Shown here piece after piece: positions 1,981-49,332 of a stretch of 64,000 bases of DNA. This DNA is from Rhizophagus irregularis (Eukaryota), in NCBI RefSeq assembly GCF_026210795.1, contig NC_089429.1:4526001-4590000 (forward strand), written 5' to 3'. Within the stretch, counting starts at the first letter, position 1; every line of letters starts with the position of its first letter. The notes under the pieces are model-generated. The model ran no database searches. It had not been told where the DNA came from and worked only from the letters and a program-made list of their open reading frames with translations. The position numbers were made by a program, and so were the translations under genes.

Positions 1981-1989
1981 TTATAAGAA

Positions 1990-7981: not shown

Positions 7982-8486
7982 TGTTACTATCGATTTGCGT
8001 CAGGGTCACGTGATAGTAACGGAAATTCATGTCACGTTTATCGTAAAATAAAATGAAATAAAGTATATATGTAAAATTAAGAGTTATATGTATGATTTTA
8101 AAGTGTATATTTATTCAATGTAAATAATAACTTAAAATAATCAAGCAATACAATAAATAAATGCTAATACATAATAAATTCATAAATAATATCAGAATAG
8201 AATATTGCTGCCTCTGCCGGCGATCTGCAATATTACCGAATAAACTATACTAAAATTTAACACTAAATAAACCTTAATTATCCCCTATCCCCCACTGTTC
8301 GCCCGCTCTATATATATTGTTCAAAAATTCGGTATAAATTATACTATGTATAAGTTAAACTTCGTATAAATTATACCAAGTATAAATTACACTTAGTATA
8401 AACTATACAAAGTATAAGTTACACCATTACACTGCGGATCGCTGCTAATTTCTTGAACTTTCCATGTGGCACAGATCCGCGTAACA
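7982..8486 (-). repeat. 3' LTR (505 bp)
   Basis: Differs from 15363-15867 at 4 positions; preceded on the minus strand by PPT AGGGGGG (~8491-8497). Confidence 0.95.
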
Positions 8487-9136
8487 TCAGCCCCCCTAGA
8501 AAGGGTGAGCTCCTGCGAGCCCTGTATTAAGATCAGGGTTTCGGCTTCACGCAACTGGCGAGCAATCGGTAGTAATTGACCATAAAATTCGTCTTCCTTC
8601 ATTTGGTCAAGGTGATGTGGTCGTATATAGGTTACTGCATACAAATTAGCCAATCCTCTCGCCTGGAACAATTCGTATACACGCTTAGCCGTCTTCTTAA
8701 ATTCACTAGCGCCTTTATTGGTGCTGAATAACTCTCTTATTCGCCGGGCATCTTTCTTCTGCCATCCTCGTAGAGTTAGAACTTCCCCTAAATAATAAAA
8801 GGTCTCTATTCTATGTAATGTTTTTCGCCTATGGAAGGAGGGTTGTTGCGTTAAATGTAATAATGTTTCTAATCGTTGTTCATCATCCTGTCCTACATAA
8901 TCCGGTACAGGAATAGTTGTCACTCCTTCCTTTCGCAAATCCTCCACACATTTTTCCAAAACAGTTGCACAATTCCCAATAAAATCGTATAGATGAATTT
9001 CCTGTATTCCAAAATTATTACTGAAAAGGATCCGGTCAGAATCAATCGTAAGAACATCATTAGGTCGCCTTTCGTGTAACTAATGTTGTAGAAAAATCTT
9101 TAATTGCCGGATAGTTTTCTTAGAATATGTCTCCAT
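8393..9136 (-). pseudogene. extra retrotransposon ORF downstream of integrase, unknown function, one internal TAG
   Basis: ATG 9136 METYSKKTIRQLKIFLQH*LHERR... is in frame with the 188-aa ORF 8959-8393 and runs into the 3' LTR. Confidence 0.65.
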
Positions 9137-9237
9137 TTTTACGTCAAAATGACTCCATTCTGGCGTCCCTTTTATATTTTCCTATTTTTCTGGAAAATTG
9201 TAGAAGATTCATGTCGTATCCTGCATTGTTTGATTAC

Positions 9238-10503
9238 CTAATCGTCGCTGTTCACTCTCCTTTCAAAATATGGAAGGAGATGATTTGCGTTTACTAATTT
9301 CTTACGTAAGCGACCATCCATTGTCCGCAGCTTATAGGTTCCATTCGGTCCTATATCGTGTATGTAGTAGGGTCCGTTCCACTTCGGATCCAATTTCCTG
9401 GCCTTAAAATTCCGAAGTAGCACTCTATCGCCGATTTGTTATCGATGTGGGCGAACTTTCTTCCCATATTGCTCAACTTGTTTTTCTTGGGATCGGTGAA
9501 TATTTTGCTGCGCCTTGCGATGATCTTCTTCCAGTGGTCCAATTATCTGATATAGTCGCTTAAAATATGTTGCTGTAAGGTCTTCAACTTGTTCGGAACT
9601 ATCAGGTTGACTAGAGATTTGTAATTCAATCGGTATAGTAGCCTCTCTCCCATACATCAAATAGAAAGGCTCATAACGGGTCGTGTTCTGTCGCATGGTG
9701 CGATAGGCAAACAAGGCGGATGGGAGGTAGACGTCCCAATCCTGCTGATATTGGTCAGAATACTTGGCCAAAAGTTCGCACAAGGTCCGATTGAACCTTT
9801 CGACCAACCCGTTCGTCTGTGGATGGTAAGCAGTGGATAACCGATGTTTTACTCCCAGCCGATTACATAACGAATCCAGAAGTTCATTAACGAAATGAGT
9901 TCCTTGGTCAGTTAGGAGTTCCTTTGGGCAACCATGCCGACAAATGATATCGTCATAGAAAAACGGAACCACCGAAGCGGCCTTAGCATCTGGAAGGGCA
10001 CGAGCTTCCGGCCACTTCGTTAAGTATTCAGTGACCACGACGATATACCGATTTCTGGTTCGCGTTATTGGTAACGGTCCCACAATATCCATTCCGATTC
10101 GATCGAAGGGTCTTCCTACCTTGATGGGATGTAACGGTTCCGATTTTATTGGCGGTTTCCGTTTTTGACATATTTCACAGGTCTGCACATATTGTTTAAT
10201 ATCGTCTTCCATCTGCGGCCAATAGTACCTTTCACTAATGGTCCAATAGGTTTCATTAAATCCAAAGTGTCCGGCTAATGAATCACTATGGAAATTATAT
10301 AAAATCGGTTCCACCTCGCTAAGTCGAAGGACCCGCAAAGGTCTTTGAGGGTTCCGATTATTTTTCTTGTATAAAATTCCATTAATAGAACAATAGTGTC
10401 GAGCTTTGCTTTTGAAACTACGGATTTGTGTGGAATCCATCGTTTCTGGTAGAACGAGATCATTCAGATATTGTAATAGTTGGTAATATAGCGTAATATC
10501 CAT
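9238..10503 (-). pseudogene. Gypsy integrase (HHCC, DDE core, GPY), one internal TAA at 9441-9439
   Basis: H..GHFG..CEIC zinc finger, IGMDIVGP, LTDQG, GLVERFN, WNGPY. Confidence 0.9.
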
Positions 10504-10587
10504 GGTTGGGTTAGATCAAGCCGTAATCTGATAAGAGGTGTCGTCCAGAAATACAATCCCGGTAAAATTTTACGATTTTGTCAATTC

Positions 10588-13560
10588 CTAATGTATTCGC
10601 GATAGACTGTCGACGTTCGTATGTTTCTTGCCAGCGCGGTGGATAATCTTGAAATCGTAGGGTTGGAGTTTCATGACCTAGCGGGCCAATCTTCTGGTAG
10701 GAGTTGCCGAGTTAAAAAGATAACACAATGCTGAATGATCCGTTATAAGAGTAAATCGCTTTTCATGTACATAAGGGTGGAAGTGTCCAACGGCCCACAC
10801 AACCGCTAAACACTCAAGTTCGGTAGCCGAATAATTCCTTTCGGCTTTGCTCAATGTCCTACTTGCATATGCAATGACTCGCTCGAATTCGTCTTCGTCC
10901 TTCTGAGCGAGGATAGCGCCCAATCCCAAAGTTGAAGCATTCGTCAATAAGATGAATTTTTCGTCAAACTTCGGGTATGCGAGAATAGGCGCTTGAACTA
11001 AATGCGTCTTCAATAAGTCAAACGACTGTTGTTGCGCCTCAGTCCATACAAAAGGACTGTCCTTTCTTAATAACTTATTTAAGGGATTTGCGATCTTTGA
11101 GAAATCTTTGCTAAATCGTCGATAATAAGACGCTAATCCCAAAAATCCACGCAATTGGGTGACGTTCCGAGGTATCGGAAAGTTTTCCACCTTTTCGATT
11201 TTCGTGGGATCGGTGCATATTCCTTTGGAACTGATCACATATCCCAGAAACGATAGTTCTCTTTTTATGAAATAACATTTCTCGGGATTCAGTTTCAATC
11301 CGGCGTTCTTAAGTCGGTTGAATACATTCCTTAAATGTTCCAGATGTTTTTCGAACGTTGTTGAATATACGTTCAAATCGTCAAGGTACACCACCACGAA
11401 ATCCCATAGTATCCCCTCCAATATCCCGTTCATCAATCGCTGGAAGGTTGCCGGTGCATTACACAAGCCGAACGGCATCACCAGGAATTGATAGGTACCA
11501 TACTGGGTAATGAAAGCCGTTTTCTCTCTGTCCTTGGGATCAACTTCGACTTGCCAGTAGCCGCTGGCTAAGTCCAACGAAGTGTATTACGATACATGTC
11601 CTAAGGCGTCGAGCATATCGTCTATTCGTGGTAACGGATAAGAATCCTTTTTTGTGACTTGATTCAACTGACGATAGTCCACGCAGAATCGCATTTTCCC
11701 ATTCTTTTTCCGAACCAAAACAACAGGAGATGCCCATGCGCTTTTGGATTTTTCGATGAGCCCTTGCTTCAGCATCTTTTGGATTTCTTCAGCTATGAAT
11801 TGTTGTTCGGTTCGGGACGTTCGGTACCACTGTTGTCGAATCGGTTTAGCATCTCCGGTGTTGATCGAGTGATACACTAAATCTGTCCGACCCAATTCCA
11901 CAGTTGTCCAAGCAAACAAATCCCGATACTGTTCAATCAACTTCTGAAATTCATTCCGTTGAGTTTTGGTTAGTTCTCCAACATTCGGTAGCTTTGATTC
12001 TCCCGCAAAGATATCGGTAATTTCATTATGTAAAAAGGGTAACGCAACACTCCGTTTCCTTATCTTTCCGATTTCTTGCCTTCCACAATAATAACATCCG
12101 ATGGCCTGTTGCTCATGCAGAATCGCATCAACATCTTTCGGTGTAAATTCGACTGATTCGAGGTCTTGTGATCGTTGTTCCTTTGTAGGCGGTTCATTCT
12201 CTTCAGGCGTAACTATACTCATCGTGGTGACGATTTGTTCCGGGACATTTTTCACTGCCGTATATAAAGTAAAATCATTTTGGCAGGTTTTACATCCTCT
12301 TGCTTTACCACATAGGCAAAGACTTTTGCCTTCATTTCCACAAATTTCTTTTCGAGCTTTTTCCAATTGGAACTTTCCGTCTAAATATCGGTAATAATTC
12401 CAATGGTAGAAGCTTCTTTGCAAATAAAACCCTTGATTGATGAGAACTAGATCCCCACTCGTCGTACTATTTTCTTTTTTCAGTCCAGACGATTTACGTT
12501 GCTTTAAAGTATCCGTACTGTCGCTTTCGAACTGATAGCAACAATAAACCTTTTCTTCTAATTCTTCCTCTTCGTATTCATCGTCAGACTCTTCCTCCTC
12601 ATCTCCATCATCATCGTCCTCTTCCTCTTCACTTTCAACTATCCTCGCCTCTTCCTCTTTTTGTTTTATCATTCGTTCGTGCGGCATCATCCGATATTCA
12701 ACAGGGATTTCCACTTCTCGGCCTTGCCAAGTGAACAACAACGTCGATGCCTTATAGTTTAACTGGGCTTGCACTTTCGATAGCCAATCGTTACCTACTA
12801 TGGCACTATAAGATTCGGTATCGATTACTACCACGTTGATAAGAACAGTAACGCCACCAACGGTTATCGGAAAATCCAGCACTTCACCCAATGGCCGTTT
12901 CTTTTCCCCGTTGACGTTTATCATCACAATTGCAGATGGTCGGTCTATCGCAATTCCCAAGTCATTCAACAGCTGACAGGTAACAATACTACCAGCTGCT
13001 CCTGTATCGACAATTAATGGGATTCTTTTCCCTTTTATCATGGCGTCGCAATACATTGCTGTCGTACTTTGTACGTCCTGATGAGCGAATTTAGCGCTTC
13101 TAGTCATTGGTTTCCGTAAACTTTTTCCAACGTCGCTTCGAAGCTTTGGTGATATCTGAAATAGTTGTCCGAAGGTAATGTTTGCTCGTTGCTATTGTAA
13201 ATCGGCAACTATGTTGTACGGTGGTATGTGAGCAGCTATTGACGGCTGAACCTTCGGTGTTTTCTTTTTCCGCACCGTAGCCTTCTTCTTTTTAATTTCG
13301 GTAGCCTGTTCTTTCGCATTGACGGTCATCGGCTCTCCTTCGCCAACATTATTAGTCGTTTGGATAGGAATCGGTATTGGTGCATACTGAGGATCTTCAT
13401 GAGCATTTTCCTCTTCGATTATTTCTTTATTCGGATATGGAGTACTTCGAGTCTTTGGTCTATTCCTTTGAGCAGGGTAGGCTTGGAACAAGGTTACATA
13501 CGAGGGATTTTGAACGGGTTTCGCACCTTCGCCCTCCAAAGGTGCACCTCCTAGTTTAAA
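10588..13560 (-). pseudogene. Gypsy pol: aspartic protease, RT, RNase H (3 internal stops)
   Basis: IVDTGA protease; [32 protein letters not shown] RNase H. The three ORF pieces share one frame. Confidence 0.92.
13510..13560 (-). promoter_or_regulatory. -1 programmed ribosomal frameshift signal (U UUA AAC plus stem/pseudoknot)
   Basis: TTTAAAC directly before the gag TAG; GCACCTT/AAGGTGC stem 8 nt downstream; the -1 frame reads into pol. Confidence 0.8.
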
Positions 13561-15317
13561 GGCGCCGATTGTCCTTGCCCTCCCAATTGCTTCAACAGTC
13601 CTTGGAGCAAATTGGGATCAATATTTCCGGTTGGGTTGAAACCAGCCTTACCACCGGTAGTATTCTCCTTCTTTGGACATCGTCTGCTAATATGTCCAGG
13701 TTCCCCGCACGAGTAACATACTATTGGTGGTCTATCTGGAACCGATAGTTCTGGTCTCGCAGCAGGTGGTTTCCGATAACTACCAGACGGACGATTATCA
13801 ATTTTCTTCTCAATTTCGGAAACTTGTTGCGCCAACACGGTAACTAATTTCGTCAATTCAGCCATCTCAGACTTGCCGGTTTGTGCATAATTCATTATCC
13901 GGGGTCTTCCAGAATTCATCGTCAATTCGCAGGCCTTTGCTCGATTAATGGCGTCGGTCAACGTTTGATCTCCAAAGGGTTTCACCGCCATGTATAATTC
14001 TGGCAATAAGCCAGACACGAACTTCCGGGCTTGTACATTATCCGGGTATGCAAATACCGGCTTGTTGATTCGCTGGTATAATTCCCTGATTGCTGACGCA
14101 TATTGATCGACCATTTCGTTCGGTTGTTGTTGCCGTTGGTCCAACTCGGTGGACTACATTTCAACCAATGCAGGTGTTCGGAATTGCTGCTTGAACACAT
14201 GTTCAAATGTGTTATTATTCGCTGCTCCTCCCCACGCGTTTATAGGGTTGTTGACAACCGTTTGCCACCATACTGCGGCCGTTCCTTTCAGATAGGCGGG
14301 CACGACTTGCAATTTGCGTGCTGCATTCCATCCATTTGCTGCGCATGCGTTATTGAACTTGTTTAACCATGTAATCGGGTCTTGGTTTCCGCCATAAAAC
14401 GTCGGAACTGGTGCCGCTTGTACTCCCCGATTCAGCATTGCATTATTGTTAGCTGTTACCGCTGCGTTTAAATTATTTAACGCATTATTCACATTTTGCA
14501 TATTATTTCCGCCAACTCCTAACGCATTTGTCAAATTATTCAAGGCGTTAAGGAGCTGGTTAGCATTAGGCATTCCTCCAGCTATAGCCGCCATGTCTGG
14601 TTCTTCTGGTTCGTTGAATAAATTTTCTAAATATAATTCTTCGTCGGTATAGAGTAAACCAGGATCTGGTGCTTGAAATAGGAAATCTAAGTGAAGGTCT
14701 TCGTCGGTATAAAGTAATCCGGCTTCTTCTTCTTTAAATAAATTATTAAGGTAAAGATCTTCATTGATATATAGTAGCCCAGGCTCTGGTCCTATTAGAT
14801 CAAAGTTGATCTCTAAATCGGAATAGTTGGATGATCCAGTTGATAATTGTACAACAAGGGATTCTGAAGAATCGGTTAATACTTCAGATAATTCAAGTTC
14901 TTCAGTTTCACTAGTTGCTTCCAGCAGCTCTCCGTAAAAATCCTTCTCAAAATTATCGGTAAGGATACAAGCGTTGTATATCTCTTGCCTTAGATTGGTG
15001 TAAGGGCGAGGTATATCGGTATATCTTACAGTGAAAACCAGTGAATAGATAGCTTCCCAAAGATCCCGAATGGTAGGTGCGTCCGATAAATCCTCTAGTG
15101 CTTGTTGAGTATTACTGGTATAACTTCCAGTAGGATTTTCGGTTGAATACCAGTCCCAAAAGTTAACGAATTGTGGAGTATTGGGTCCAGGCGGGTAACA
15201 ATATGGACAGGAAAGATCACGATGATAATACTGAACTTGGATTATATTATTGTTTAAACGTGTATGCCAACGATCGTGTATAGTATTCTGTTGAAAGAAT
15301 AGGTTATAATCTATCAT
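13551..15317 (-). pseudogene. Gypsy gag with long N-terminal extension and CCHC knuckle; internal TAG at 14156-14154
   Basis: PTFYGGNQDPITWL capsid start; CYSCGEPGHISRRC; ORFs 15317-14154 and 14144-13551 are in frame. Confidence 0.9.
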
Positions 15318-15343
15318 ACAATAATCGGGTGGGTATCAAGTTT

Positions 15344-15359
15344 CTGGCAGAAGGCACCA
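15344..15359 (-). promoter_or_regulatory. primer binding site TGGTGCCTTCTGCCAG (possibly tRNA-His)
   Basis: TGG starts 3 nt inside the 5' LTR and is complementary to a tRNA ending ...GGCACCA; tRNA identity is a guess. Confidence 0.7.
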
Positions 15360-15362
15360 AAT

Positions 15363-15867
15363 TGTTACTATCGATTTGCGTCGGGGTCACGTGATAGTAA
15401 CGGAAATTCGTGTCACGTTTATCGTAAAATAAAATGAAATAAAGTATATATGTAAAATTAAGAGTTATATGTATGATTTTAAAGTGTATATTTATTCAAT
15501 GTAAATAATAACTTAAAATAATCAAGCAATACAATAAATAAATGCTAATACATAATAAATTCATAAATAATATCAGAATAGAATATTGCTGCCTCTGCCG
15601 GCGATCTGCAATATTACCGAATAAACTATACTAAAATTTAACACTAAATAAACCTTAATTATCCCCTATCCCCCACTGTTCGCCCGCTCTATATATATTG
15701 TTCAAAAATTCGGTATAAATTATACTATGTATAAGTTAAACTTCGTATAAATTATACCAAGTATAAATTACACTTAGTATAAACTATACAAAGTATAAGT
15801 TACACCGTTACACTGCGGATCGCTGCTAATTTCTTGAACTTTCCATGTGGCGCAGATCCGCGTAACA
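15363..15867 (-). repeat. 5' LTR (505 bp)
   Basis: Direct repeat of 7982-8486. Confidence 0.95.
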
Positions 15868-16509: not shown

Positions 16510-17130
16510 GAAAAATGATATTCCAGTGGCTTAGTAAAATAACTTATTTATCTCCGGTATCCGTACATAAAGCCCTTTAATATATACTTATTTTGACTAA
16601 TAATGATCTTTTTATTCCAATATTGCTTTTTACCCATCTTTTTAAATAAACACCACCCGTGAGAATATCAAGAAAAAAATTCACAAATTTTAACTAGGAA
16701 CCGTGGGATAACTTGTATTAAATACATACGAAACTAAAAATCATAATAATGTTTACAAATTGTTTAATTTGCTAACGAAGACTAGTATGGATTACTTTAT
16801 GGTGAGAAAAAATTGTCAATCATAAGGCGCAGCACATATTTTTAGTTTAACTGACACCAAAAAATCTGCCCAAAAAATTCCGCACAGGCCGGCACTATGC
16901 AGTAACACGTGAATAAACAGTAGTGCGTGACAAATAGGATTTTGACTAACCGAAAAAAATCTAAGTCCCTCAGATACTTATAGAAAATGGAAACACAGAG
17001 GGACGTGACACGTGTGATGAATAAATTTTACTATGTGGATTAATTTTTTAGTACAGTGTGACATAGTACAAATCGTACAAATAACCTTAAATCGATATTT
17101 TTTTTTTAAAAAAAAATTTTTTTACAAGAA

Positions 17131-18540
17131 ATGATGAGAGGATATTCATTAGAAAAAGATTTAAGATTATTAATAAATAATCCAAAATATAGTGACATAG
17201 AAATTTTATGTGAGGATGGAAAGAAATTATATGGTTGTAAAGCAATTTTAGCAGCAAGATCCGAAGTATTTAACGGATTACTTTATAATGGAATGAAGGA
17301 AAGTTATGAAAACAAAATTACTTTTCCAAATATTAATTCTTTTGGTATGGAGATTATTATGGAATATATTTATACGGGATCAATTAAAGAAGAATTTTTA
17401 ACAAAGGATAATATAACTGAAGCATTTTACGCCGCAGATTATTTTCAATTACCAGACCTTCAGGATTTTATTATAAAAGTTTTCAAAAATTTCAAAAATA
17501 TGTTAGAAAAATATTTTTCTCCGGAAATATTGTCTATATTTGCAGGAAAAATGCCATTAACAGAAGATAATATTCTATTAAATTTATTGGTTAAAGCGGT
17601 AGCTAATATTCCATTAAATACAATTGAATTCGATCGATTATCTATTAAAGGTCTTCAATATCTTTTATATTGTACACATGAAAAAAAAATTCCTTTTGCA
17701 ACCCCAGAATATGAAGTTTTTCGATATAGTGCTATCCTTGCAGCAAAACAAGTTTCTAACGATGCATATAAAGCTCTTATGGAACGGGTACCGACCTTAG
17801 AACAAATAGAAAACTCTGTACAAGTACTAGAGAATAAAATAATTGCTGATCATCAAAAAATTGCTAAAGAATTGGAACCTTTAATTGAATTTATTGATTT
17901 CAGACGAATTCAAGGTCTAATATTAGTTGATATTATTGAGCCACTAGAAATTGTTCCAACTAAAATTATTTTAAATGTATATCGATATAATACAAAATCA
18001 ATTAATTCCGATAGAAATTATATTCGAGGAGTACCCATTTATTTCAATTATATTTGGGATGATACAGCATGTGGATCAAAACTTATTATTGAGGATAATG
18101 GAAAAGTTATTTATGCACGAAATGATCTTGATTTACTCCATAGTGTTAGAGCTAAAATGATATTAGAAAATAATTATATTTTTGAATGGGATGTTATTAT
18201 TGAAAGAACTTGTAGTTGGTCTTGGGTTGGGGTATGTGCATCAGAAAATTTTGATTATGAAATTCCTGCAGGAAAACAATTTTCTGGATGGGTATTAGGT
18301 TCCAATGGTAATTGTCGTAGTTCTGGAGTTAATATAGGAAATTATTGCCCATCATTCGGAGATGGTACAAAAATTACTGTCCACTTAGATATGAATAAAA
18401 GAACTTGTGCTTTTACAGTCAACGGTACAAAGTATCCAGAAGTATCAACATGGGATAATTTACCATCAAAGCTTTATCCAGTAGTATCGTTGTATTACCC
18501 TGGTCGATTTCGAATTCAGCCTCATCAGAAAAGAATTTGA
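17131..18540 (+). CDS. BTB/POZ-BACK-SPRY protein, 469 aa
   Basis: Intact paralog of 1990-3411. Confidence 0.9.
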   Translation: MMRGYSLEKDLRLLINNPKYSDIEILCEDGKKLYGCKAILAARSEVFNGLLYNGMKESYENKITFPNINSFGMEIIMEYIYTGSIKEEFLTKDNITEAFYAADYFQLPDLQDFIIKVFKNFKNMLEKYFSPEILSIFAGKMPLTEDNILLNLLVKAVANIPLNTIEFDRLSIKGLQYLLYCTHEKKIPFATPEYEVFRYSAILAAKQVSNDAYKALMERVPTLEQIENSVQVLENKIIADHQKIAKELEPLIEFIDFRRIQGLILVDIIEPLEIVPTKIILNVYRYNTKSINSDRNYIRGVPIYFNYIWDDTACGSKLIIEDNGKVIYARNDLDLLHSVRAKMILENNYIFEWDVIIERTCSWSWVGVCASENFDYEIPAGKQFSGWVLGSNGNCRSSGVNIGNYCPSFGDGTKITVHLDMNKRTCAFTVNGTKYPEVSTWDNLPSKLYPVVSLYYPGRFRIQPHQKRI

Positions 18541-21827: not shown

Positions 21828-24800
21828 ATGGCTCAAAGTAACGATAAAGGTAAAAGCATATAACATGAGTATAGATATCTAATACAAATTGAAATTGCTC
21901 TAAATTTTTTTCAAACCAAATTTGCAACATAATGAAACTAGTTTCAAAAATTGAGAAAGATAAAGGTAAGAAAATTATTTAACAGCTTGCGAATTATAAA
22001 CATAATTTAAATTTTTTAAACTATTTCTAAATATTATTTTACTATATTAGCTCGTAAGTAATAGGTTATCTTATAATCGGAATGATAATTAATTAAATTA
22101 CTTATTTCTATTATTTTATATAACCAAATAATTCATTTTATTATTTAATATTATTATAGTTGGTAAGTTAATAGCTATTTTTTTTTTATTGCATTTTACA
22201 TGATATCTTAAATAACTAAATTTTCTATTAATATAATTACGATACTAATATCATAGGAAGTAAGTAATTAATTTTATATTAATTTAAAAGTATTTAAAGT
22301 ATTTATTTAATAATTTTAATAATATAGGGAGTATGTTTTTATTTAATTCCATTATATTTATATAATATTTACATATAATTTAAACTAACTAAATTCTTTA
22401 TTTAAAAAATTATTCAAACATTTTAGAACGTAAGTAATTCTATTATATTTATACAATATTTACATATAATTTAAACTAACTAGATTCTTTATTTAAAAAA
22501 TTATTCAAATATTTTAGAACGTAAGTAATTCTATTATATTTATATAATATTTACATATAATTTAAACTAACTAAATTCTTTATTAAAAAACCATTTTGTA
22601 ATTTCTTTTAGTTGGTAAGTTATAAGTTATTTATATAATATTTACATATAATTTAAACTAACTAAATTCTTTATTTAAAAAATTATTCAAATATTTTAGA
22701 ACGTAAGTAATTCTATTATATTTATATAATATTTACATATAATTTAAGCTAACTAAATTCTTTATTTAAAAAATTATTCAAATATTTTAGATTGTAAGTA
22801 ATTCTATTATATTTATATAATATTTACATATAATTTAAACTAACTAAATTCTTTATTTAAAAAATTATTCAAATATTTTAGATTGTAAGTAATTCTATTA
22901 TATTTTTATAATATTTACTTATAATTTAAACTAACTAAATTCTTTATTTAAAAAATTATTCAAATATTTTAGATTGTAAGTAATTCTATTATATTTTTAT
23001 AATATTTACATATAATTTATACTAACTAAATTCTTTATTTAAAAATTATTTATTAGGGAGTATGTTATTTATTTAATTCTATTATATTTATATAATATTT
23101 AAATATAATTTAAGCCAACTAAATTCTTTATTTAAAAATATTTTAGAATGTAAGTAATTTTATAATATTTACATATAATTTAAAACTAACTAAATTCTTT
23201 ATTAAAAAACTATTTTGTAATTTCTTTTAGTTGGTAAGTTATAAGTTATTTATATAATATTTACATATAATTTAAACTAACTAAATTCTTTATTTAAAAA
23301 TTATTCAAATATTTTAGAATGTAAGTAATTCTATTATATTTATATAATATTTATATTTAATTAAACTAACTAAATTCTTTATTTAAAAATTATTCAAATA
23401 TTTTAGGTTGTAAGTAATTCTATCATATTTATATAATAATTACATATAATTTAAACTTACTAAATTCTTTATTTAAAAAATTATTCAAATATTTTAGATA
23501 GTGAGTAATTCTATTATATTTATAGAATATTTACATATAATTTAAACTAACTAAATTCTTTATTTAAAAAATTATTTATTTAATAATATAGGATGTATGT
23601 TATTTATTTAATTCTATTGTATTTATATAATATTTACATATAATTTAAATTAACTGAACTCTTTATTTAAAAAATTATTCAAATATTTTAGATGGTAAGT
23701 AATTCTATTATAATTTACATATAATTTAAACTAACTAAATTCTTTATTTAAAAAATTATTCAAATATTTTAGAACGTAAGTAATTCTATTATATTTATAT
23801 AATATTTATATATAATTTAAACCAACTAAATTCTTTATTTAAAAAATTATTTATTTAATAATTTTAATAATATAGGGAGTATGTTATTTATTTGATTCTA
23901 TTATATCTATATAATATTTACATATAATTTAAACTAACTAAATTTTTATTTAAAAAATTATTCAAATATTTTAGATTGTAAGTAATTCTATAATATTTAT
24001 ATAATATACATATAATTTAGACCAACTAAATTTTTTATTTAAAAAATTATTCAAATATTTTAGATAGTAAGTAATTCTATTATATTTATATAATATTTAT
24101 ATATAATTTAAACTAACTAAATTCTTTATTTAAAAAATTATTCAAATATTTTAGATAGTAAGTAATTCTATTACATTTATATAATATTTACATATAATTT
24201 AACTAACTAAATTCTTTATTTAAAAATTTATTTTGTAATTTTTTTTAGTTGGTATGTTATAAGTTATTTATTTAATTCTATTATATTTACTATAATATTT
24301 ATATATAATTTAAACTAAATTCTTTATTTAAAAAATATTCAAATATTTAGATGGTAAGTAATTCTATATTTACTATATAATATTTACATATAATTTAAAC
24401 TAACTAAATTCTTTATTTAAAAAATTATTTACTTAATAATATAGGGCGTATGTTATTTATTTAATTCTATTATATTTATATAATATTTACATATAATTTA
24501 AACTAACTAAATCCTTTATTTAAAAAATTATTTATTTAATAATATAGGGCGTATGTTATTTATTTAATTCTATTATATTTATATAATATTTACATATAAT
24601 TTAAACTAACTAAATTCTTTATTTAAAAAATTATTCAAATATTTTAGATAGTAAGTAATTCTATTATATTTATATAATATTTATATATAATTTAAACTAA
24701 CTAAATTCTTTATTTAAAAAATTATTCAAATATTTTAGAACGTAAGTAATTCTATTTATATTTATATAATATTTACATATAATTCAAACTAACTAAATTC

Positions 24801-27800
24801 TTTATTTAAAAAATTATTTTGTAATTTCTTTTAGTTGGTAAGTTATAAGTTATTTATTTAATTTTATTATATTTATATAATATTTACATATAATTTAAAC
24901 TAACTAAATTTTTTATTTTAAAAATTGTTCAATTATTTTAGATTGTAAGTAATTCTATTATATTTATATAATATTTACATATAATTAACTAACTAAATTC
25001 TTTATTTAAAAAATTCTTTATTTAATGATATAGTCTGTAAGTTATTTATTTAATTCTATTATATTTATATAATATTTACATATAATTTAAACTAACTAAA
25101 TTATTTATTTAAAAAATTATTTATTTAATAATATAGGGCGTATGTTATTTATTTAATTCTATTATATTTATATAATATTTACATATAATTTAAACTAACT
25201 AAATTCTTTATTTAAAAAATTATTTATTTAATGATATAGGGCGTATGTTATTTATTTAATTCTATTATATTTATATAATATTTATATATAATTTAAACTA
25301 ACTAAATTCTTTATTTAAAAAATTATTCAAATATTTTAGAACGTAAGTAATTCTATTTATATTTATATAATATTTACATATAATTTAAACTAACTAAATT
25401 CCTATTTATATTTATATAATATTTACATATAATTTAAACTAACTAAATTCTTTATTTAAAAAATTATTTATTTAATAATATAGGGCGTATGTTATTTATT
25501 TAATTCTATTATATTTATATAATATTTACATATAATTTAAATTAACTAAATTCTTTATTTAAAAAATTATTTTGTAATTTCTTTTAGTTGGTAATTTATA
25601 TGTTATTTATTAAATATATAATATTTACATATAATTTAAACTAACTTAATTCTTTATTTAAAAAAAAATTATTCAAATATTTTAGATGGTAAGTAATTCT
25701 ATTATATTTTTATAATACTTACATATAATTTATACTAACTAAATTCTTTATTTTAAAAATTATTTATTAGGGAGTATGTTATTTATTTAATTCTATTATA
25801 TTTATATAATATTTAAATATAATTTAAACTAACTAAATTCTTTATTTAAAAATATTTTAGAATGTAAGTAATTTTACAATATTTACATATAATTTAAATT
25901 AACTAAATTCTTTATTTAAAAAATTATTTACTTAATAATATAGGGCGTATGTTATTTATTTAATTCTATTATATTTATATAATATTTACATATAATTTAA
26001 ACTAACTAAATTCTTTATTTAAAAAATTATTCAAATATTTTAGATAGTAAGTAATTCTATTATATTTATATAATATTTATATATAATTTAAACTAACTAA
26101 ATTCTTTATTTAAAAAATTATTCAAATATTTTAGAACGTAAGTAATTCTATAATATTTACATATAATTTAAAATTAACTAAATTCTTTATTAAAAAACTA
26201 TTTTGTAATTTCTTTTAGTTAGTAAGTTATAAGTTATTTATTTAATTCTATTATATTTATATAATATTTGCATATAATTTAAACTAACTAAATTCGTTAT
26301 TTAAAAAATTATTCAAATATTTTAGATAGTAAGTAATTCTATTTATATTTATATAATATTTACATATAATTCAAACTAACTAAATTCTTTATTTAAAAAA
26401 TTATTTTGTAATTTCTTTTAGTTGGTAAGTTATAAGTTATTTATTTAATTTTATTATATTTATATAATATTTACATATAATTTAAACTAACTAAATTTTT
26501 TATTTTAAAAATTGTTCAATTATTTTAGATTGTAAGTAATTCTATTATATTTATATAATATTTACATATAATTAACTAACTAAATTCTTTATTTAAAAAA
26601 TTCTTTATTTAATGATATAGTCTGTAAGTTATTTATTTAATTCTATTATATTTATATAATATTTACATATAATTTAAACTAACTAAATTATTTATTTAAA
26701 AAATTATTTATTTAATAATATAGGGCGTATGTTATTTATTTAATTCTATTATATTTATATAATATTTACATATAATTTAAACTAACTAAATTCTTTATTT
26801 AAAAAATTATTCAAATATTTTAGATGGTAAGTAATTCCATTATATTTATATAATATTTACATATAATTTTAACTAACTAAATTCTTTATTTAAAAAATCA
26901 TTCAAATATTTTAGATGGTAAGTAATTCTATTATATTTATATAATATTACATATAATTTAAACTAACTAAGTTCTTTTTAAATTATTTTGTAATTTCTTT
27001 TAGCTGGTAAATTATTTGTTATTTATTTAATTCTATTATATTTATACAGTATTTCATATAATTTAAACTAACAATTCTTTATTTAACAAATTATTTTGTA
27101 ATTTTCTTTAGCTGGTAAGTTATTTGTTATTTATTTAATTCTATTACTATATTTATGTAATATTACATATAATTTAAACTAATTAAGTTCTTTATTTATT
27201 AAATTATTTTGTAATTTCTTTTAGCTGGTAAGTCATTTGTTATTAAATTCTATTATATTTATATAATATTTACATATAATTTAAATTTACTAAATTCTTT
27301 ACTTAAAAATTATTTTGTAATTTCTTTTAGTTGGTAAGTTATAAATTATTATATACTATTATTTAAAATTAAATTAATTAATTATTTAAACTATATTAAA
27401 TTTTTATAATTTTATTTAGAGTAAGTATAATTAATATTGTTTAATATTTAAATTTTTAATGTAAATTTTATTTAAATTTTAATTTAATATAATTTCATTT
27501 TATACTTAAAGAATTGTTACTAGTGGAAGTAAAATTATGGATCAATTTATTTCTGAAAATAAATTAAAATGGATTTCTTATGATAAATTTAAACATATTA
27601 AATATCTTGATAAAGGAGGATTTGGTATTGTATATAAAGCTAAATATAAAGCTACTAAGTATAAAGATATTAAAGTTATTCTTAAATATTTTGATTATCT
27701 TAATAATTCAGATGAAAGTTTAAATGAAAGTTTAAATGAAGTATGATTAAATATTATCTTTTTTTTAATATTATAAATTATTTATACCTAATTTACTGAT

Positions 27801-30155
27801 AAATATTATTTTTTATAGTGGAAAATTATTGATTCATATGAAATTATTAGAATATATGGATTTACAAAAAATCCAGATACTTTGAATTATGTATTAATAA
27901 TGGAGTATAGAAATAAGAATAGTTTAAAAAAATGTTTAACAGAAATAACAAAAAATTGGGAACAAAAATTATTTTGTTTATATCAAATTATTAAGGGACT
28001 TAATGATATTCATGAAGAAGATCTTATTCATTATAGCTTTCATAATGGTAATATTTTATGTAACAAATATGAAGAAAATATATATGGAATTTTTATTAGT
28101 GATTATTTAGGATTATATCAACTTGCAAAATCTTTTTTAAAAGCAAATGATATCTATGGAGTTTTACCATTTATAGCACCTGAAATTTTAAAAGGTCAAC
28201 CCTATACTCAAGCTAGTAATATATATAGTTTTTCTATAATTATGTGGGAATTTACATCTAAAATTCTACCATTTAATGATAAAGCACATGATATTCAGCT
28301 TGCTTTAAGTATTTGTAAAGGTGAACGTCCTGAAATTATTGAAAATACTCCACAATGTTATATAGATTTAATGAAAAAATGCTGGGATGAAGATCCATTA
28401 AAAAGACCATCTTCTAAAGAAATTTTAAATATTATTGAAAATTGGATTTTTCGTCCTGAGAATAAGAAAATTGAAGATATTAATGAAGAATTAAAAAGCA
28501 ATATTATGGAATTTATAAATGCACCAATTGAGCATCTTATTGTAGAATCTCATCCAAAAGCATGCTATACAAGTCATTCACTTGGTTTTACTAGTAAAGA
28601 ATTAATTGAAAAACTAATTCTAGAAAGCCCTCAGGTATTTCTTGAACTATATCAAAGTTCTCAAAATGAATTACAAAATATTCAAATTGAATTAGTTAAT
28701 TTACAACAAAGAAATTCTCGAATAGAAGAAGAAATTCTTAAGTTAGAAAAGATTGCTGAAACTTATTATCAAAGTTCTCAAAATGAGTTAGTTAATTTAC
28801 AACAAAGAAATTCTCAATTTAAAAATCAATTAATTCAAACAAAAGAAGAAAAACTCAAGTTAGAAAATGAATTATTTGATTTACAACAAAGGAATTTTAA
28901 ATTTGAGCAAAATAATCAAAATCCGAGGCTTAAATTTGCTAAACAGATTAAAGAATTTGCAAAAAAAGAAAATGTTTTACAAACCCAAATTATTGATCTA
29001 CAAAATGAAAAGCAAAACTTAGCTGGCAATTTAACTGAACAGTTGGGACAAAATAAACTAATTAACCAGCAAGTTCAAGATCAAATCTGCCAGTTAAAGC
29101 AAGAAGAAACTAAATTGCAAGAAAAATTATCTCAAATAAAAGCTAATATTCAAGAATTAAAATCTTACAAAGAAAGCTTAATTGAACAAAAAGAGCAATT
29201 AGAAAATAGATTAAATCAGTTTCAAGTTAATTATGAACAGATAGAACAAGAAAAGATCAGATTATACAATATGGCAGAAGGACTTTCACAAGAACAGAAG
29301 CAAACAATTAAATTGAAAATCAAGTTTGAAAAAGAAATTGCTCAATTGGAACAAAATTTGATTATTGAAGAACAAATCAAAATGCAATTAACTCAAGCTT
29401 TACAGATTAAAGTTGATAAAATAAATGAATTAGAACAAAAACTTATTAACCTTGATCAAGAGCGTATTAAAAAATTACAAAATAAAAGAAAAGAATTGAG
29501 TGAAATTGAAAAGGAATTATTAAATAAATTAACTAGTGGGAAAAATACTAAAGAAATTCATAAAGAAGAAGCTAAACAAAAAGAGATAAATGAACTCCAA
29601 CAAGAATTATCAAGAACTTTAGCTTCTTATAATATCAATAGAAAAAAACAGGTTTTCAATCAAGTCAATAATTTTTTGAAAGTTAAGGGTGATTTCCTAA
29701 CTTTACGAGAAGAAGCTATTAAAAAACTACAAAATTGCTGCAATCATCTAGAAAGTTCTATTAATAAAGAAAGAAATACTATTGGTTCTAACAGAGATAT
29801 GAAAATCTCAAAATTGACTGATAAATATACTAAAAAATTTCAAAGTATTCTTGTAAAATATAATGATGGATTGTTAGAGTTGAACAAAATTTATTATTCC
29901 TTAAAGAATGTTATTCAGAAAAATAAAGAGTTGGAAGTTAGCCTCATGATTGAAAATATTCTTAAGTTGAATTCTTTCAATCTTGATAAATACAAAATTT
30001 TTAAATTTGCTACTAATTCTCAGGAAGGAACCAGAATTCAATTAAATTCTAATATGATGGAAGAAGATATAAATTCATTAAGAAAGAATTTGAATGAATT
30101 GAAATTAGAATTAAACCAAGAAAAAAAAGAATCAAAAAATTTAGCAACAGTTTAA
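21828..30155 (+). CDS. micro-exon-array gene: variable N-terminal peptide, TKL-type pseudokinase, long coiled coil
   Basis: Model: 21828-21849, 21942-21965 (or ATG 21932-21965), 56 x 3-nt exons from 22051 to 27333, 1-nt exon 27420, 27512-27740, 27819-30155. All introns are GT-AG and the joined frame is open. Confidence 0.7.
21966..27511 (+). repeat. tandem array of 58 intron units (71-144 bp spacing, typically ~95) separated by micro-exons
   Basis: Unit: GTAAGT/GTATGT - tattatatttatataatatttacatataatttaaACTAACtaaattctttatttaaaaaatt - TAG, then 3 variable nt. Confidence 0.92.
27512..30155 (+). CDS. kinase-like domain plus ~500-aa coiled coil (exons 27512-27740, 27819-30155)
   Basis: TSGSKIMDQFI, KGGFGIVYKA, VILK, YGFTKNP, HYSFHNGNIL, PFIAPE, GERPEI, CWDEDPLKRP; Q/E/K/L heptad-rich tail. 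Confidence 0.9.
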
Positions 30156-30769
30156 ATTTAACCATATTGATGGATTATAGTACAATTCATAAAATAGTTA
30201 TTTATTGAAAAGAAATTAAGTATAGTATTTACAATATATATTCTAGAATTTATTGAACATTAATAGTTCTAGAAATTTTGAGATTTTTTTTATTAAATTA
30301 TAACTATATTTTTATATTTTATTTTTGTTTTTTATCAATAAAGGATCATTAAACTTAAAGTTCGTTATATAAATCATTTAAATAACCATTGTAAATGTTT
30401 TTTACTTATATTTAAATTAAAAATAAATAAAACATATTTAGTATATGAGATGATTTATATTTATTTATTTATTTATTTTATGTGAAGAATGGCAGGATCA
30501 CCAAAAGAGCAAAACTAACTAATTAAAGAAAGAAGTTCAACATAAATCTGTCATCCAGGGGAAGGAGAAGCCTACCTGTGGACCCAAACTTCTTTTTAAA
30601 GAAACTAGACTAATCCTCTATCACGTCCAGTAGAGGACGAGGTAAAAAGCGCCAAAATAAAACTTCGAACAAAAAAATATAAAGTAAACTATTAAAAGAA
30701 GTCAGTGGATATCTACATATTATAAATAAAATAAACATCATTACATATAGGTGAAGAATAATTAATAAT

Positions 30770-32460: not shown

Positions 32461-35400
32461 TTATTATTTATTTTAAGCCGTAATATTATGGAACTTAATT
32501 ATTGACTTTCCTTTGCAGTAAATACATATATTAAATTAATAATTCGATTAACAAATTATGAACTACTTCATCGTTATATTGTTTATATTGTTTATGGATT
32601 CATATAATGCTACTTTGTTACTAATCCTCCCACTACTATTCTTATTCTTAAACTTCTTTGAAGAACTTATAAATTGAGGCTCTTTCAATAGTTATTTTTT
32701 ATGGTTAATCTTTATCTTCGCTAATCCTATTTTTGTTAATCTTATTGTTATTTTATATTATTATTTCATTATTTTTTGTTAATTTCATTATCTTTTGTTA
32801 TTTCTTATCGTCGGGATTTTGTACGGGTCCCATTATACCTATTTTAAGCTAATTAAATTCTAATTTATTTAGATGGTAAATTATACTAAGTTATTATTTT
32901 ATTATTTTTTTTTGTTATTTTTTAATTATTATTTTATTCTTTATTTATTATTCTTCGGTTGTTAGATATTATATTTTATTTCACGGGTAAATTTTTTTTT
33001 TTGAGGCTGAGATTTTTTGTAATTATCATCTATTTTCAGATAATAAACTTTTTTACATTAAATTGATTATATTTGATCATGCGATCATGCATATTTGTAT
33101 TTCTCAGCAGTCCAGATAATTTGACTCTCCGCTGTATTTAAGGCAAAAAAATAATGATTGTAGACTAACCGATATGGAAATTTACTATTGTTTAGACTAC
33201 TACGTGACGCAATGGTTTCAGAGTCATATGATAGCTCGGCCATAAAGATGACTCATAAATCAAACAAACTATTAGTCATGGTTGATAACAATATTCATTC
33301 AACAATAGAATATAACATTGTAGACTTATATCATGTGATAAGAAAATAATATAAAAAGGTACACCTTCCTAACAAAAAAAGCCACTACCTAATAAAAAAC
33401 TCTCCTAACAAAAAAATAAATAATAATGTTGTTTCCGAGTTTTAAACTCTCCTAACAAAAAAAAAAGATGATGGTCCATACGAACAACAAAAGGCTTTTA
33501 TGGATAATAACGTTGCCTTCGACCTATGAAAAAATTAAACGTTAAAACCTACTGCTGTCTAACAAATGTTACTGTTTACTGGAATTTTTAAGAGGTGGGT
33601 AAAGAGTATTCTATCACCCACTGACCATAAGCCTTGACTGCACACCGCGAAAGCAACGTGCGAAGGTTTATGAGGGCTGACCGAACGACTTTAAAGGGTT
33701 GCAAATAGATGACTGGGGCCCATCGTACGAGAACCCACCCCAAGGTTATATCTTTGAAAGTGGAGCCTTAGTTAAGGTACCTGAATATAAGTCATCAGGT
33801 TCAAATTCACCGTCTTGAAGATATAGTAGTTGGCTGACAAGTGCTCTGGAGTCACTCTTGCAAAGGATCTGATGGTCATAATAGAGGATATAGATGGTGG
33901 TGAAGGATACCATGATATATATAGTCACTCCCGAAATGTATGCTTATCCCTAAGGTAGTTGGGTTATGGTGTACAACCACTTGTCAAAATGGTCACTGTT
34001 TAAAATACCATTTTGGTATTCACTATTATGGCCTGAAGTGAATGAGCTAGAACTAACATAAGGTTTCAATGCTAATTTATAGGGACCTGTAGAATGGCAT
34101 GGGCGGAAAGAAATGCAACAAAGAGAACTCCACTTCAAGAAATTAAATCGGTTCTTATTGCTCAGTTTACATTTTTCATTGTTTTATATTATCACATAAT
34201 TGGTTACTGACCACCAAACTATTTTAACATAGCGTTATAAGAAGACCAGCATGAAGTCCGGCAAAAAAAAATAAGATATATGAGACGGTATAATCTATAG
34301 TCAATGGCCATATATATTAGTGTAGAAAATTTAGCAAATGAGCCTAATCATGTAATTTATTTACTACATCAAAAAATAATTCATCCGAAAAGGCTATACA
34401 TTGTATTAAGAATATTTTTCGTGGGATATAGAGATGTATGGTGATAAAAAAAAGTGAGACCTAAAGTCCCACTTGAATAAAATAAATCACGTCCTATATG
34501 AAAGTTGTAATCGAATATGTAATCTGAATTTGATAAGTAATGTTATATCCCAGGAACACGTAATTTATTCTCGAACTTTCTTGCATATACTCAAAGTTTT
34601 ACGTATAAAAAAAAAGAGATCTTTGTATATGGGTAGCGTCAAAAGTTTTTTTTTATTATAAATCCGTTGATCAGACTTTCGTGATGCGATCATATTAACG
34701 TAATCTCCCCAAAAGTGATCCTGTAAATTATATAAAAAAGGTGAGACCCTGGGGATTAGTGAACTCTTATCTATCTTGTGCAAGTAAGGTGAAAAAATAA
34801 CAAACGAAATAATCACATTATCAATAATATTAATCAAACGAACTCGTATATTCCGCAAATTAATAATGTTGGTTTTGTTGCTCGACTAGTTTCTAAAAGA
34901 ACGCCATCAATGTTAATCGATTTTTCCGGCTCTATAATGCTCAAAGTCAAAGCGGACATATTACTATTCTTGATCTTTTAACACATTTGGTATTCGCCGA
35001 GAAATCGTGATTGCTAGCACGTGCCTCATCGCCGCAGTAAAATTCAGAGAAAAAAAATCACATCTGTAATTTCAGCAGTATCATCCTGCCTATAAAAAAA
35101 TCGAAACACCTTTATTATAACGCATTAAGCAACATTCATAGTCTTCCGAATTTATACTTAGGTTCGAAATTTCTTATTTTTGGAGAAGTTCTCTTCTGGA
35201 ATATTATTATTTAATAGTGTTGTATGGGCGGAAGTGATGTACTGTAGATAGACAAAACTTCTGTAGATATGTGTGGGATATTTTATTTCGGAAATCTAGT
35301 GTAGAAAAAGCTGAGAATCTATAGTGATAGAAACAAATTAGCTATATTTTTCGAAAACGTGAGAAAGTAAAGAAATAACTAGTCCCATCTTTGATAGCAA

Positions 35401-37224: not shown

Positions 37225-39631
37225 ATTACTTTCTTTGAAACACCCGCAGAATACTGGAGCTTGGACAGCTTGGACACAATTGTATCACACTATTGTTATT
37301 ACGAAGACAACGTTTGTCGCATTCTCGACTATATTAAAAAAGACCTAAAGTGACGTGTAATGATGGAAGACCATGATGCTCAGCAAGCAAAAGAACTTCT
37401 GGGTCCCGGCTGGACGGTACCCGGTATCCTTCTGAATTCCTGGAAAATGATCTCAAAGTTAGTAAAGCCTGTAAATGCACGTTTTTAACGTTGTTTAAGG
37501 AATTACTTATCTGTTAGTATATGTTCCGATTACTTGATGTAAAAGGTTGTTTTTCTTTTTGCATCAACAAGAATCTTTCAAGATTCTTCCTTTCTGAATA
37601 TGACTCTTTTTGCTATATCTAGACATGAATCAAATGAAGAAAAATCCATATCAGCCTCAAGATGAAAAAGATGCTATATCTAGTACTAGTATTTTGCAAA
37701 TAAATGGTTTGTGCTACACTTTCACTACGTTGCTGATACAATCACTTGAATTTAACTCGGCAGAACCGATGATTGAGAGATTAGAATTTGAAAGAACAGA
37801 ACTGATAGTAGACAATGTCGATCTGGAAGAGATTTTCGAAAAATACCGTAGTGAATGTGAAAATAATTTGAGTGAGTAAGTTAATACAAGATTTCTTCAA
37901 GGTACTGTACGTTGCAAAATCTGGAAAAAGGAATTACTTTTGGTTTTGCTGACTTTTATTATTCATTGGCCAAACTAGAAGAATGGATAGGAGCTGGGAA
38001 ATCGTTTGCAGTGAATCACGTGATTTCCGATTTACCGAAATAATAATAATATTGTATAAAGAATTAAGAATTAAAATTATATGTTGACTTTTTTTTTATC
38101 ATTGTTTCTTAGCCTAACTTAGTTTAGTTAATAGTTATAACCTATCAAAATTGCTTTCAAGTTTAAAATTATCAGTATTTCATTAATAGTACATGCATGA
38201 ATAGTAGGTTTTTATTAAAGTAATGTTTTATCTTCAAGTTTTATTTTTTCTTTTAAGATAGTTGTATGCTATCCTAGTTTGTATTGAAGAATAAGTAAAT
38301 TTTTAATTTGAATTTGTAGTAATAACAAGATTACAACTAAATATAAAATAAAAAAGAAATTTGAATAATTCAAATCGGTATAATTTGCTAATTATATTAA
38401 GCATTCTTCTCGGGTCTCGCTTCTAAATTCTTTCGATTTGTAATATATACTGAAAATAATGATCATCGGAAAAAAAATTTTCCATTACAGTTATTGTTAT
38501 TGCATGAAAAAGCAGAATCTGAAATTATTACATAATGTGTAACAAATCAAAAAGAATAATTGATAAAATGGGCGGTTTATTTGCTTTTTTTCCATACTGT
38601 GCCTTATTTTTTTAAAAAAAAAGAACAATCAATAATGCAGGAATTTTTTTTTGATGTCGATCTTAGTTTCAGCCTCATTAATACAGTAGAGGACACATAC
38701 CAACAAAATAATATGTTAACTATTTTTGATCTTTCAAATAAAAAGTTTCGTTCTAATGAACTTTTGCAGTATATTGCATAATGCATATGCATGTAATCTG
38801 CATTATAATCACCATCATGTAACAACCTTCATATATATATGGTTACTTCACCTAACAGTTACGTAAATCAAGAATGTAATATTTAATTTTTATTATTGTG
38901 ACTTCTGATTTGAGATTCTGTGTCACCGCAGCTATTGACTTTTTTAAAATTACATGTGATATAATTAAATATACCTGCTTCATAAGAAATGTCCATATTT
39001 TAACAATAAGAGTGAATCCGACTTTATTAACTAATATTTGAATGTAATAGAAAGTTATTTTAATAGGACTTTTAGTGATGTGTATGAAGAAGCGACAACC
39101 GCAAATTTAAAAAATTGTTTATTAAATTGATAATCAAAATAATTTTTATATGTAAAAAAAAAAAACTTTTTAACCATAAAAGTTCGAGCATGATTTATGC
39201 TGTCAAACGAAATCTATATTTAGAATAGTATCTGCTTTAAACCAAATATGTGGTAGATCAAATTAAACATACCATTTGATAAAAAGTTTCAATAATTCGC
39301 TAATTTTTTCTGAATGGATTGCCGTTTTTTTTAGGACAGGTTTTTAAATTTTAGAAATCTGTTGTTGTATTACATGAATTAATAAGTCTTTATTATAAAA
39401 ACGAGAAATGAATTCATTCGTGGCAATGTAAAAGATTCTTGTCCCAACGTTACAAATTGTATGGTTATACAAACTGGTGGCTACACAAGTTTTGAAATAA
39501 GGTTTTCTTTGTTTTTTTTTGTTTTTTTTTTTTGGTAAAATTAAATAAATAAATAAATAAATAAATTTCGAAAAAAAAATAAAATAAAATAAAATAAAAA
39601 AAATAAAAAAGACAAATTTATAATTAAAAGG

Positions 39632-49227: not shown

Positions 49228-49332
49228 ATGAAGTGAAATTCATTAGAAAATGATTTAAGGTTATTAACAAAATTGAAAATAAAAAGAAATATAAGGTTGT
49301 AGAATGACTTTAGCTGCAAGGTTCGAAGTACT
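49228..49332 (+). pseudogene. 5' fragment of a BTB-SPRY gene truncated at a CCCTATAAAAAA element end
   Basis: ttcattagaaaatgatttaagg...ttagctgcaaggttcgaagta, then CCCTATAA at 49333. Confidence 0.55.

What the first reader, a model, noticed from the sequence alone, without database searches (positions are those of the whole stretch)
22328..27333. Three cassette types shuffled through a shared mid-intron core, with block duplications and variation concentrated in the exon bases
Seen: type A caaatattttag-(AAC/AAT/ATT/ATA/ATG/GTT)-gtaagtaattc; type B gtaatttcttttag-(TTG/TTA/CTG)-gtaagtta; type C atatag or tattag-(GGA/GGC/GAT/TCT)-gtatgttattt (gtaagtt after TCT). They are interleaved irregularly and all share the ~60-bp branch-point core. 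Blocks recur at fixed offsets: exons 24835-25137 vs 26422-26724 (+1587), 24548-24739 vs 25944-26135 (+1396), 23057-23147 vs 25771-25861 (+2714). At ~25400 two cores abut with no exon between them. Flanks are near-identical while the 3 exon bases vary. Inference: unequal crossover or conversion in the core rewrites the peptide at DNA level, with diversifying selection on exon bases.
Basis: partly seen in the sequence, partly recalled or inferred. Interest (0 to 1): 0.8.

Follow-up and report, generated by a model that had tools for sequence, protein, structure and literature searches.

The report
Split-codon microexon array in fungal kinase
What looks like a 5-kb repeat in a root-symbiont fungus is the front of a kinase-like gene with 56 three-base exons and one single-base exon, the last of which are seen spliced in order, and since every codon straddles two exons, DNA shuffling of these units likely rewrites a hypervariable peptide.

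Summary
One spliced contig from a public run carries the last nine exons, part of a tenth and the 1-nt exon in genomic order; its length fits all 56.

The introns are phase 1, so each codon is split across two cassettes: 15 exon variants can reach 19 amino acids, against 9 in phase 0.

Three cassette types, free shuffling across the shared core, the block duplications and excess exon variation hold for types A and C, not B. Differences between isolates could not be tested. The kinase lacks the catalytic Asp.

Codon-sized exon arrays are in print for Tuber NLR genes, attributed there to alternative splicing, and this scan found such arrays before on other DNA (HET genes, protists). New here: the lineage, the gene class, the size with RNA support, the split-codon layout and DNA-level shuffling.

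The parts
21828..21849 (+). First coding exon part (ATG to donor), ends in phase 1; start codon inferred
   Evidence: A contig of a related copy (3 differences) leaves the genome exactly at 21849 (X18). Similar N-termini in paralogue models P0110, P0230.
21942..21965 (+). 24-nt coding exon, phase 1 at both ends
   Evidence: An X19 contig of a related copy (19 differences) has this exon's last letters joined to the exon at 22051 while later introns are kept.
22051..22259 (+).
22328..27333 (+). 53 three-base exons of cassette types A, B, C separated by 52 homologous 78-141-nt GT-AG introns; putative branch point about 39-43 nt before the AG
   Evidence: the last nine exons and part of a tenth are seen joined in contig X20-25
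24742..25224 (+). 483-nt exact block duplicated at +1587 (26329-26811)
24536..24755 (+). 220-nt exact block duplicated at +1396
25343..25483 (+). 141-nt intron with a doubled core and no exon between (likely an out-of-register exchange)
27420..27420 (+). Single-nucleotide exon that turns phase 1 into the phase 2 needed by the kinase exon
   Evidence: Last loose letter of contig X20-25; closes an open 926-residue frame
27512..27740 (+). First kinase exon (N-lobe)
   Evidence: Contig X20-25, 0 differences; identical to the start of P0001 over the aligned part
27819..30155 (+). Last exon: rest of kinase-like domain without catalytic Asp, long coiled-coil-like region, C-terminal helical bundle
   Evidence: Pfam PF00069/PF07714; intron 27741-27818 skipped in X20

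Best explanation
The repeat is a coding array of 56 three-base exons plus a one-base exon at the front of a Rhizophagus kinase-like gene, its last exons are seen spliced in genomic order, and unequal crossover or gene conversion between the near-identical introns likely reshuffles them to vary a 57-residue peptide, likely under diversifying selection. Each codon takes its first base from the end of one exon and its other two from the start of the next (phase 1), so an exchange inside an intron creates a new amino acid at the junction instead of only reordering residues. Introns are likely removed one after another by intron definition, so a 3-nt exon would be joined to the growing upstream exon before its own donor is used. 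The protein is predicted to be a cytoplasmic pseudokinase with a coiled-coil region, whose variable N-terminal peptide would act as a polymorphic recognition or specificity segment. Shown: gene structure, splicing of the last 10 exons plus the 1-nt exon, duplications, exon-base excess within one haplotype. Inferred: inclusion of the first 46 exons, exchange mechanism, selection, splicing order, function.
For: Contig X20-25 (923 nt, 0 differences) skips the GT..AG intron 27741-27818 and has 179 loose letters before 27512. The 30 shown equal the joined last exons plus the 1-nt exon. That 30-mer is nowhere in the window DNA (best 18 of 30). 179 = 56x3 + 1 + 10. The model gives one open frame of 926 residues from the ATG. 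Linkage is complete across exons and absent across cores. 36% of the array lies in exact repeats of 100 nt or more. Type A exon diversity is 0.07/0.48/0.76 against an intron mean of 0.058 (max 0.46, 78 columns); type C is 0.26/0.38/0.67 against 0.037 (max 0.36). Type A shared variants: 4 in 3 exon sites against 8 in 39 flank sites, P=0.008, and 0.002 without the later duplicate blocks. In 540 nt of the +1587 pair, 2 of 3 differences are exon bases. The most variable site, exon base 3, is the first codon position in phase 1. 0 of 13 T-ending exons precede an AA- or GA-starting exon, so no stop arises (permutation P=0.032). The three flank types differ widely and a related array has diverged introns (L033), which argues against tight sequence constraint as the reason for intron uniformity.
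Against: Only one contig from one run, whose RNA label is a guess, shows the splice, and only 30 letters are visible; nothing from X20 could be laid on the 5' flank. Type B shows no exon excess, and the type C shared-variant test is not significant without duplicates (P=0.18). Stop avoidance weakens to P=0.074 without duplicates. 5 of 9 single-base exon differences are synonymous in phase 0, and 7 of 50 public paralogue models read such a stretch in a phase-0-like alphabet. The binomial tests treat recombining copies as independent. No second haplotype was seen. No evidence bears directly on function.
Confidence: 0.62

Rival explanations
1. Neutral minisatellite-like expansion: an intron-plus-3-nt unit expanded inside a tolerant N-terminal linker; the introns are held by splicing constraint and homogenised, and the exon bases merely drift.
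For: Recent exact duplications and a doubled core show passive slippage or crossover. Minimum-change counts give only a modest excess (5 changes in 3 sites against 20 in 39; P=0.03). Type B has no excess. Aromatic residues are not enriched over random pairing (16 against 13.6, P=0.17).
Against: Four common type A exon classes share essentially identical flanks of 34 nt on each side. Scattered singletons show that flank sites can mutate. No stop codon in 55 junctions.
Confidence: 0.2
2. Tuber-like system: diversity arises mainly by alternative inclusion of the 3-nt exons in RNA, and the DNA shuffling is secondary.
For: This is the mechanism reported for Tuber nank genes (passages in PMC4986451, PMC13449251, PMC3689799). 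Any skip keeps the frame; only 4 of 54 single skips and 59 of 1485 skip joins make a stop. Assembled contigs drop rare variants.
Against: The one contig seen has ten consecutive exons without a skip and a length that fits full inclusion; a 179-letter unbranched stretch at depth 12.9 speaks against frequent skipping.
Confidence: 0.1
3. The family reads the array in phase 0 (one Gly/Ile/Leu/Met-rich codon per exon) using a 5-nt last exon, and this gene is a frame-shifted or mis-spliced derivative.
For: P0109, P0113, P0117, P0139, P0144, P0145 and, more weakly, P0146 carry G/I/L/M-rich runs before Ser-Lys and the kinase start. 5 of 9 single-step exon changes are synonymous in phase 0. A second GT lies 4 nt after the used donor.
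Against: The contig shows the 1-nt exon. The upstream exons end in phase 1. 25 of 50 models end in S/C/G/R-Lys before the kinase start, which is what reading four bases into a GTAAGT donor would give, so these models may be prediction artefacts (inference, their DNA was not seen).
Confidence: 0.08

Closest known systems
Codon-sized microexons of the Tuber melanosporum nank (NACHT-ankyrin) NLR family (Iotti et al. 2012; paper not held, known only from passages in PMC4986451, PMC13449251, PMC3689799)
   Same: Tens of 3-nt exons in an expanded gene family of a mycorrhizal fungus, read as a diversity generator
   Different: Here the gene is a kinase-like coiled-coil gene in Glomeromycota. The one transcript seen includes exons in order. 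Diversity appears to be written in DNA by duplication and exchange. Codons are split across exons and a 1-nt exon closes the array. Whether the Tuber introns are homologous, or what phase they have, I could not read.
Schistosoma micro-exon genes (MEGs; passages of bioRxiv 10.1101/2023.06.21.545858)
   Same: Runs of very short exons, mostly multiples of 3, in variable proteins
   Different: MEG exons are 3-81 nt (mostly 15) with introns of 0.1-5 kb, the proteins are secreted, and isoforms come from alternative splicing. Here exons are 3 nt, introns 78-141 nt and homologous, with a large intracellular-type domain attached.
Repeat shuffling in Podospora high-internal-conservation NLRs and exon-encoded repeats of brown algal receptors (passages of PMC13449251)
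   Same: Near-identical units exchanged at DNA level, proposed to diversify recognition proteins
   Different: There the unit is a whole protein repeat; here the homology lies almost wholly in introns and the coding unit is a split codon.
Single-nucleotide exon of Fusarium CYP621A (abstract of PMC12940212)
   Same: A 1-nt exon needed to keep the frame, supported by transcript data; it supplies the middle base of a codon, as here
   Different: An isolated exon in a conserved enzyme, described there as the first for a fungal gene; here it ends a 56-exon array.

Membership tests
Tuber nank-type codon-sized microexon system | Tens of consecutive 3-nt exons that reach the mRNA | tested here: met
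   56 exons in DNA; the last ten seen joined
Tuber nank-type codon-sized microexon system | Extensive alternative splicing of the microexons | tested here: inconclusive
   One contig without skips; contigs drop rare variants; no raw RNA reads were laid
Tuber nank-type codon-sized microexon system | Host gene is a NACHT-ankyrin NLR | tested here: not met
   Pfam finds only kinase families in the 778-residue last exon; the first kinase exon matches kinases
Tuber nank-type codon-sized microexon system | Expanded family whose members carry arrays | tested here: inconclusive
   Many paralogues; 7 of 50 models with array-like stretches; one related DNA array, L033; paralogue DNA not available
Schistosome MEG | Short exons separated by long (0.1-5 kb) introns | tested here: not met
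   Introns 78-141 nt, median 91
Schistosome MEG | Small secreted protein with signal peptide | tested here: not met
   926-residue frame with a polar N-terminus and a kinase domain (by inspection, no predictor run)
Introner-type transposable introns (features recalled, no call) | Near-identical introns inserted at dispersed, unrelated sites | tested here: inconclusive
   All copies seen are head-to-tail in one gene and the array pattern recurs nowhere else in the window, but the rest of the genome is not held
Active Ser/Thr or tyrosine-kinase-like kinase | Catalytic-loop Asp (HRD motif, recalled) | tested here: not met
   His-Tyr-Ser at this place, and His-Tyr-Asn in most of the closest relatives listed
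Non-coding satellite | Repeat absent from spliced coding RNA | tested here: not met
   Joined exons in frame with the kinase in contig X20-25

The most novel reading that the evidence does not exclude
Glomeromycota kinase genes carry a heritable split-codon peptide library: homologous introns act as recombination handles, phase-1 three-base exons let 15 cassette variants encode 19 amino acids, a conserved 1-nt exon restores the frame, and nuclei or isolates differ in the resulting recognition peptide across a whole overlooked gene family.
Probability: 0.35. Interest if true: 0.88.

Novelty: new variant of a known kind. Interest (0 to 1): 0.7.

Why it matters
It shows a coding region that the public annotation of a model symbiont misses entirely: the model starts at an internal Met. 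It supplies rare transcript support for a long run of 3-nt exons plus a 1-nt exon, a natural test of how spliceosomes handle minimal exons. If arrays differ between isolates or nuclei, it offers a concrete mechanism for fast protein variation in arbuscular mycorrhizal fungi, and it suggests that array-like stretches in many paralogue models are read in the wrong frame.

Tried and rejected
No whole genome is held, so paralogue DNA could not be read.

Runs: no RNA holder is listed on record. Read laying covered only the flanks, so array variation between isolates is open. On the 5' flank nothing was laid for X20 and X23, which proves nothing.

Collection scans: viral contigs gave 0 matches. Prokaryote genomes gave 10 stretches in bacteria, not examined and taken as unrelated.

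Protein searches gave no model with a phase-1-like N-terminus among those inspected (40 of the 150 listed representatives viewed).

C-terminal 247 residues: confident helical bundle (pLDDT 85.6), no Pfam family, no Foldseek match at E<=0.001, best Z 12.3 to a designed bundle, atlas score at most 0.80. No function follows.

Aromatic enrichment of the peptide was not significant. A long branch-point distance as an adaptation is only suggestive: the branch point is predicted and only five other introns were compared.

Literature: microexon plus Rhizophagus, arbuscular mycorrhizal or Glomeromycota terms found no description; one search was uninformative. Passages of the 2022 assembly preprint do not mention it (supplements not seen). 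Iotti 2012 is not held.

Full report
Setting. The window is AT-rich eukaryotic DNA. The exon after the array encodes a protein identical, over the aligned part, to Rhizophagus irregularis OCT59_000931 (P0001), whose public model starts at an internal Met and omits everything upstream. No whole genome is held.

Observation. All 52 array introns are GT..AG, 78-141 nt, and contain a shared 49-nt core within 8 edits; 71 of 88 consensus columns are at least 85% identical. A branch-point-like motif was found in 49 of 52 introns, at a median of 39 nt before the end. The three block duplications and the exonless doubled core at 25343-25483 are confirmed. Three units in a row match 15 times in the window and never in 100 shuffles.

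Splicing. Four runs were laid on 27340-30300. One contig of run X20 (RNA label guessed) covers 27512-27740 and 27819-28333 with no differences and skips the 78-nt GT..AG intron. It carries 179 further letters in front. The 30 shown are exactly two bases of the exon at 26422, the nine following 3-nt exons and a single A, which lies at 27420 between an AG and a GTAAGT. The 30-mer does not occur in the window DNA (best 18 of 30). 179 equals 56x3 + 1 + 10, which fits inclusion of all exons but does not show it. On the 5' flank X20 and X23 gave nothing; an X18 contig of a related copy leaves at the donor 21849; an X19 contig of a related copy (depth 2.6, 19 differences) has the end of the 24-nt exon joined to the first 3-nt exon with later introns kept. 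That is a weak hint of ordered 5' to 3' intron removal. Extended branch-point distance is reported before vertebrate neural microexons (abstract of PMC12871342); the parallel is only suggestive.

Frame. The ATG exon and the 24-nt exon end in phase 1, and the kinase exon needs phase 2; the 1-nt exon supplies the shift, giving one open frame of 926 residues. Each codon therefore uses the last base of one exon and the first two of the next. The array encodes 16 different residues in this frame and would give 9 in phase 0; free pairing of the observed parts reaches 19 amino acids plus stops. No stop occurs: P=0.032 by permutation, 0.074 after dropping the later duplicate blocks.

Shuffling. Acceptor and donor types agree across the exon in 53 of 53 cassettes; across the core they are compatible with independence (P=0.17, Cramer's V 0.25). 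The right edge of the +1587 block lies at the core end, where a type C acceptor is replaced by a type A acceptor and a new codon results. At its left, the two copies differ at only three of 540 positions, two of them exon bases, so exchange also happens beside exons. 36% of the array is in exact repeats of at least 100 nt.

Exon variation. Type A exon columns have diversity 0.07, 0.48 and 0.76 against an intron mean of 0.058; 5 of 10 pairs with no intron substitution differ in the exon. Type C gives 0.26, 0.38 and 0.67 against 0.037. Type B (0.44, 0, 0.18 against 0.088, max 0.62) shows no excess. Counting variants outside the splice signals, type A has 4 shared variants in 3 exon sites and 8 in 39 flank sites (P=0.008; 0.002 without duplicates); type C gives P=0.015, or 0.18 without duplicates. 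These tests use one haplotype and treat recombining copies as independent, so selection is inferred, not shown.

Relatives. Of 50 related kinase models with at least two residues before the conserved kinase start, 25 end in S/C/G/R-Lys, and 7 carry a Gly/Ile/Leu/Met-rich run before Ser-Lys, one of them weakly (R. irregularis and R. diaphanus). That alphabet matches the phase-0 reading of this array. Ser-Lys is what the window would give if four bases of the donor after the 1-nt exon were read as exon. I infer that these paralogues carry arrays and the same 1-nt exon, and that their models took the other frame; a true phase-0 reading is kept as a rival. A metagenome scan for three units reported 111 stretches and stopped at its limit; 108 loci were parsed. 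L033 (15% GC) shares nine 20-mers with the array and has diverged introns around varied 3-nt exons. Seven GC-rich loci, some overlapping, show the same layout with an unrelated intron.

Protein. Pfam finds only kinase families. The catalytic-loop Asp is replaced, and the two best solved matches shown also have Asn there; most of the closest relatives listed have His-Tyr-Asn, while the wider family keeps an Asp. The C-terminal 247 residues fold as long helices and a bundle with no specific match. A recognition role for the variable peptide rests on analogy with fungal NLR and HET genes only.

Known systems. Tens of codon-sized microexons diversified by alternative splicing are reported for Tuber nank genes (passages; the original paper was not held). 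Schistosome MEGs differ in intron size and secretion (passages). A fungal 1-nt exon was described in 2026 (abstract). Searches found no description for Glomeromycota (passages of the assembly preprint; supplements not seen). Earlier notes of this scan describe one-codon arrays in HET genes and protists; none was returned for this place or sequence, or for split codons.

Verdict. A real, at least partly spliced microexon array and a new variant of a known kind. It works like a nank-type diversity array but is not a member of that family. Interest 0.7.

Noticed in passing
L013, L034, L037, L046, L064, L091, L101 (metagenome): GC-rich arrays of homologous introns of about 85-100 nt around varied 3-nt putative exons, unrelated in sequence to the window array; L046 has a cysteine-rich, EGF-like stretch upstream (read by eye). 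Some loci overlap. Likely an independent origin of the same layout.
   Followed up: partly
L033:1-1012 (minus strand): AT-rich array related to the window's, with diverged introns and nine putative 3-nt exons, all different.
   Followed up: partly
L002, L050, L052, L065, L074, L089, L093, L106: Repeats of 107-113 nt in AT-rich contigs that match the splice-like pattern with a nearly constant triplet; probably not exons; unexplained.
   Followed up: no
window 1987-5379, 17110-18540, 47267-58960: About seven similar long frames; the one scanned (17110-18540) is BTB plus SPRY, so likely a tandem BTB-SPRY family.
   Followed up: partly
window about 7980-15805: LTR retrotransposon on the minus strand with 99% identical terminal repeats 7381 nt apart, integrase domains and frames broken by stops.
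   Followed up: partly
window 39620-45113: Long multi-exon gene with a hydrophobic, channel-like C-terminal part; two frames scanned had no Pfam match.
   Followed up: partly
window 61683-62480 and 63472-63564: 185-nt tandem repeat (4.4 copies) and a hexamer repeat (15.5 copies).
   Followed up: no
window 32872-32874: A lone triplet with acceptor-like and donor-like flanks outside any frame that I identified.
   Followed up: no
window 28141-28260 region versus P0001: The public model P0001 also lacks about 100 residues of the kinase C-lobe that contig X20-25 reads through without a gap.
   Followed up: partly
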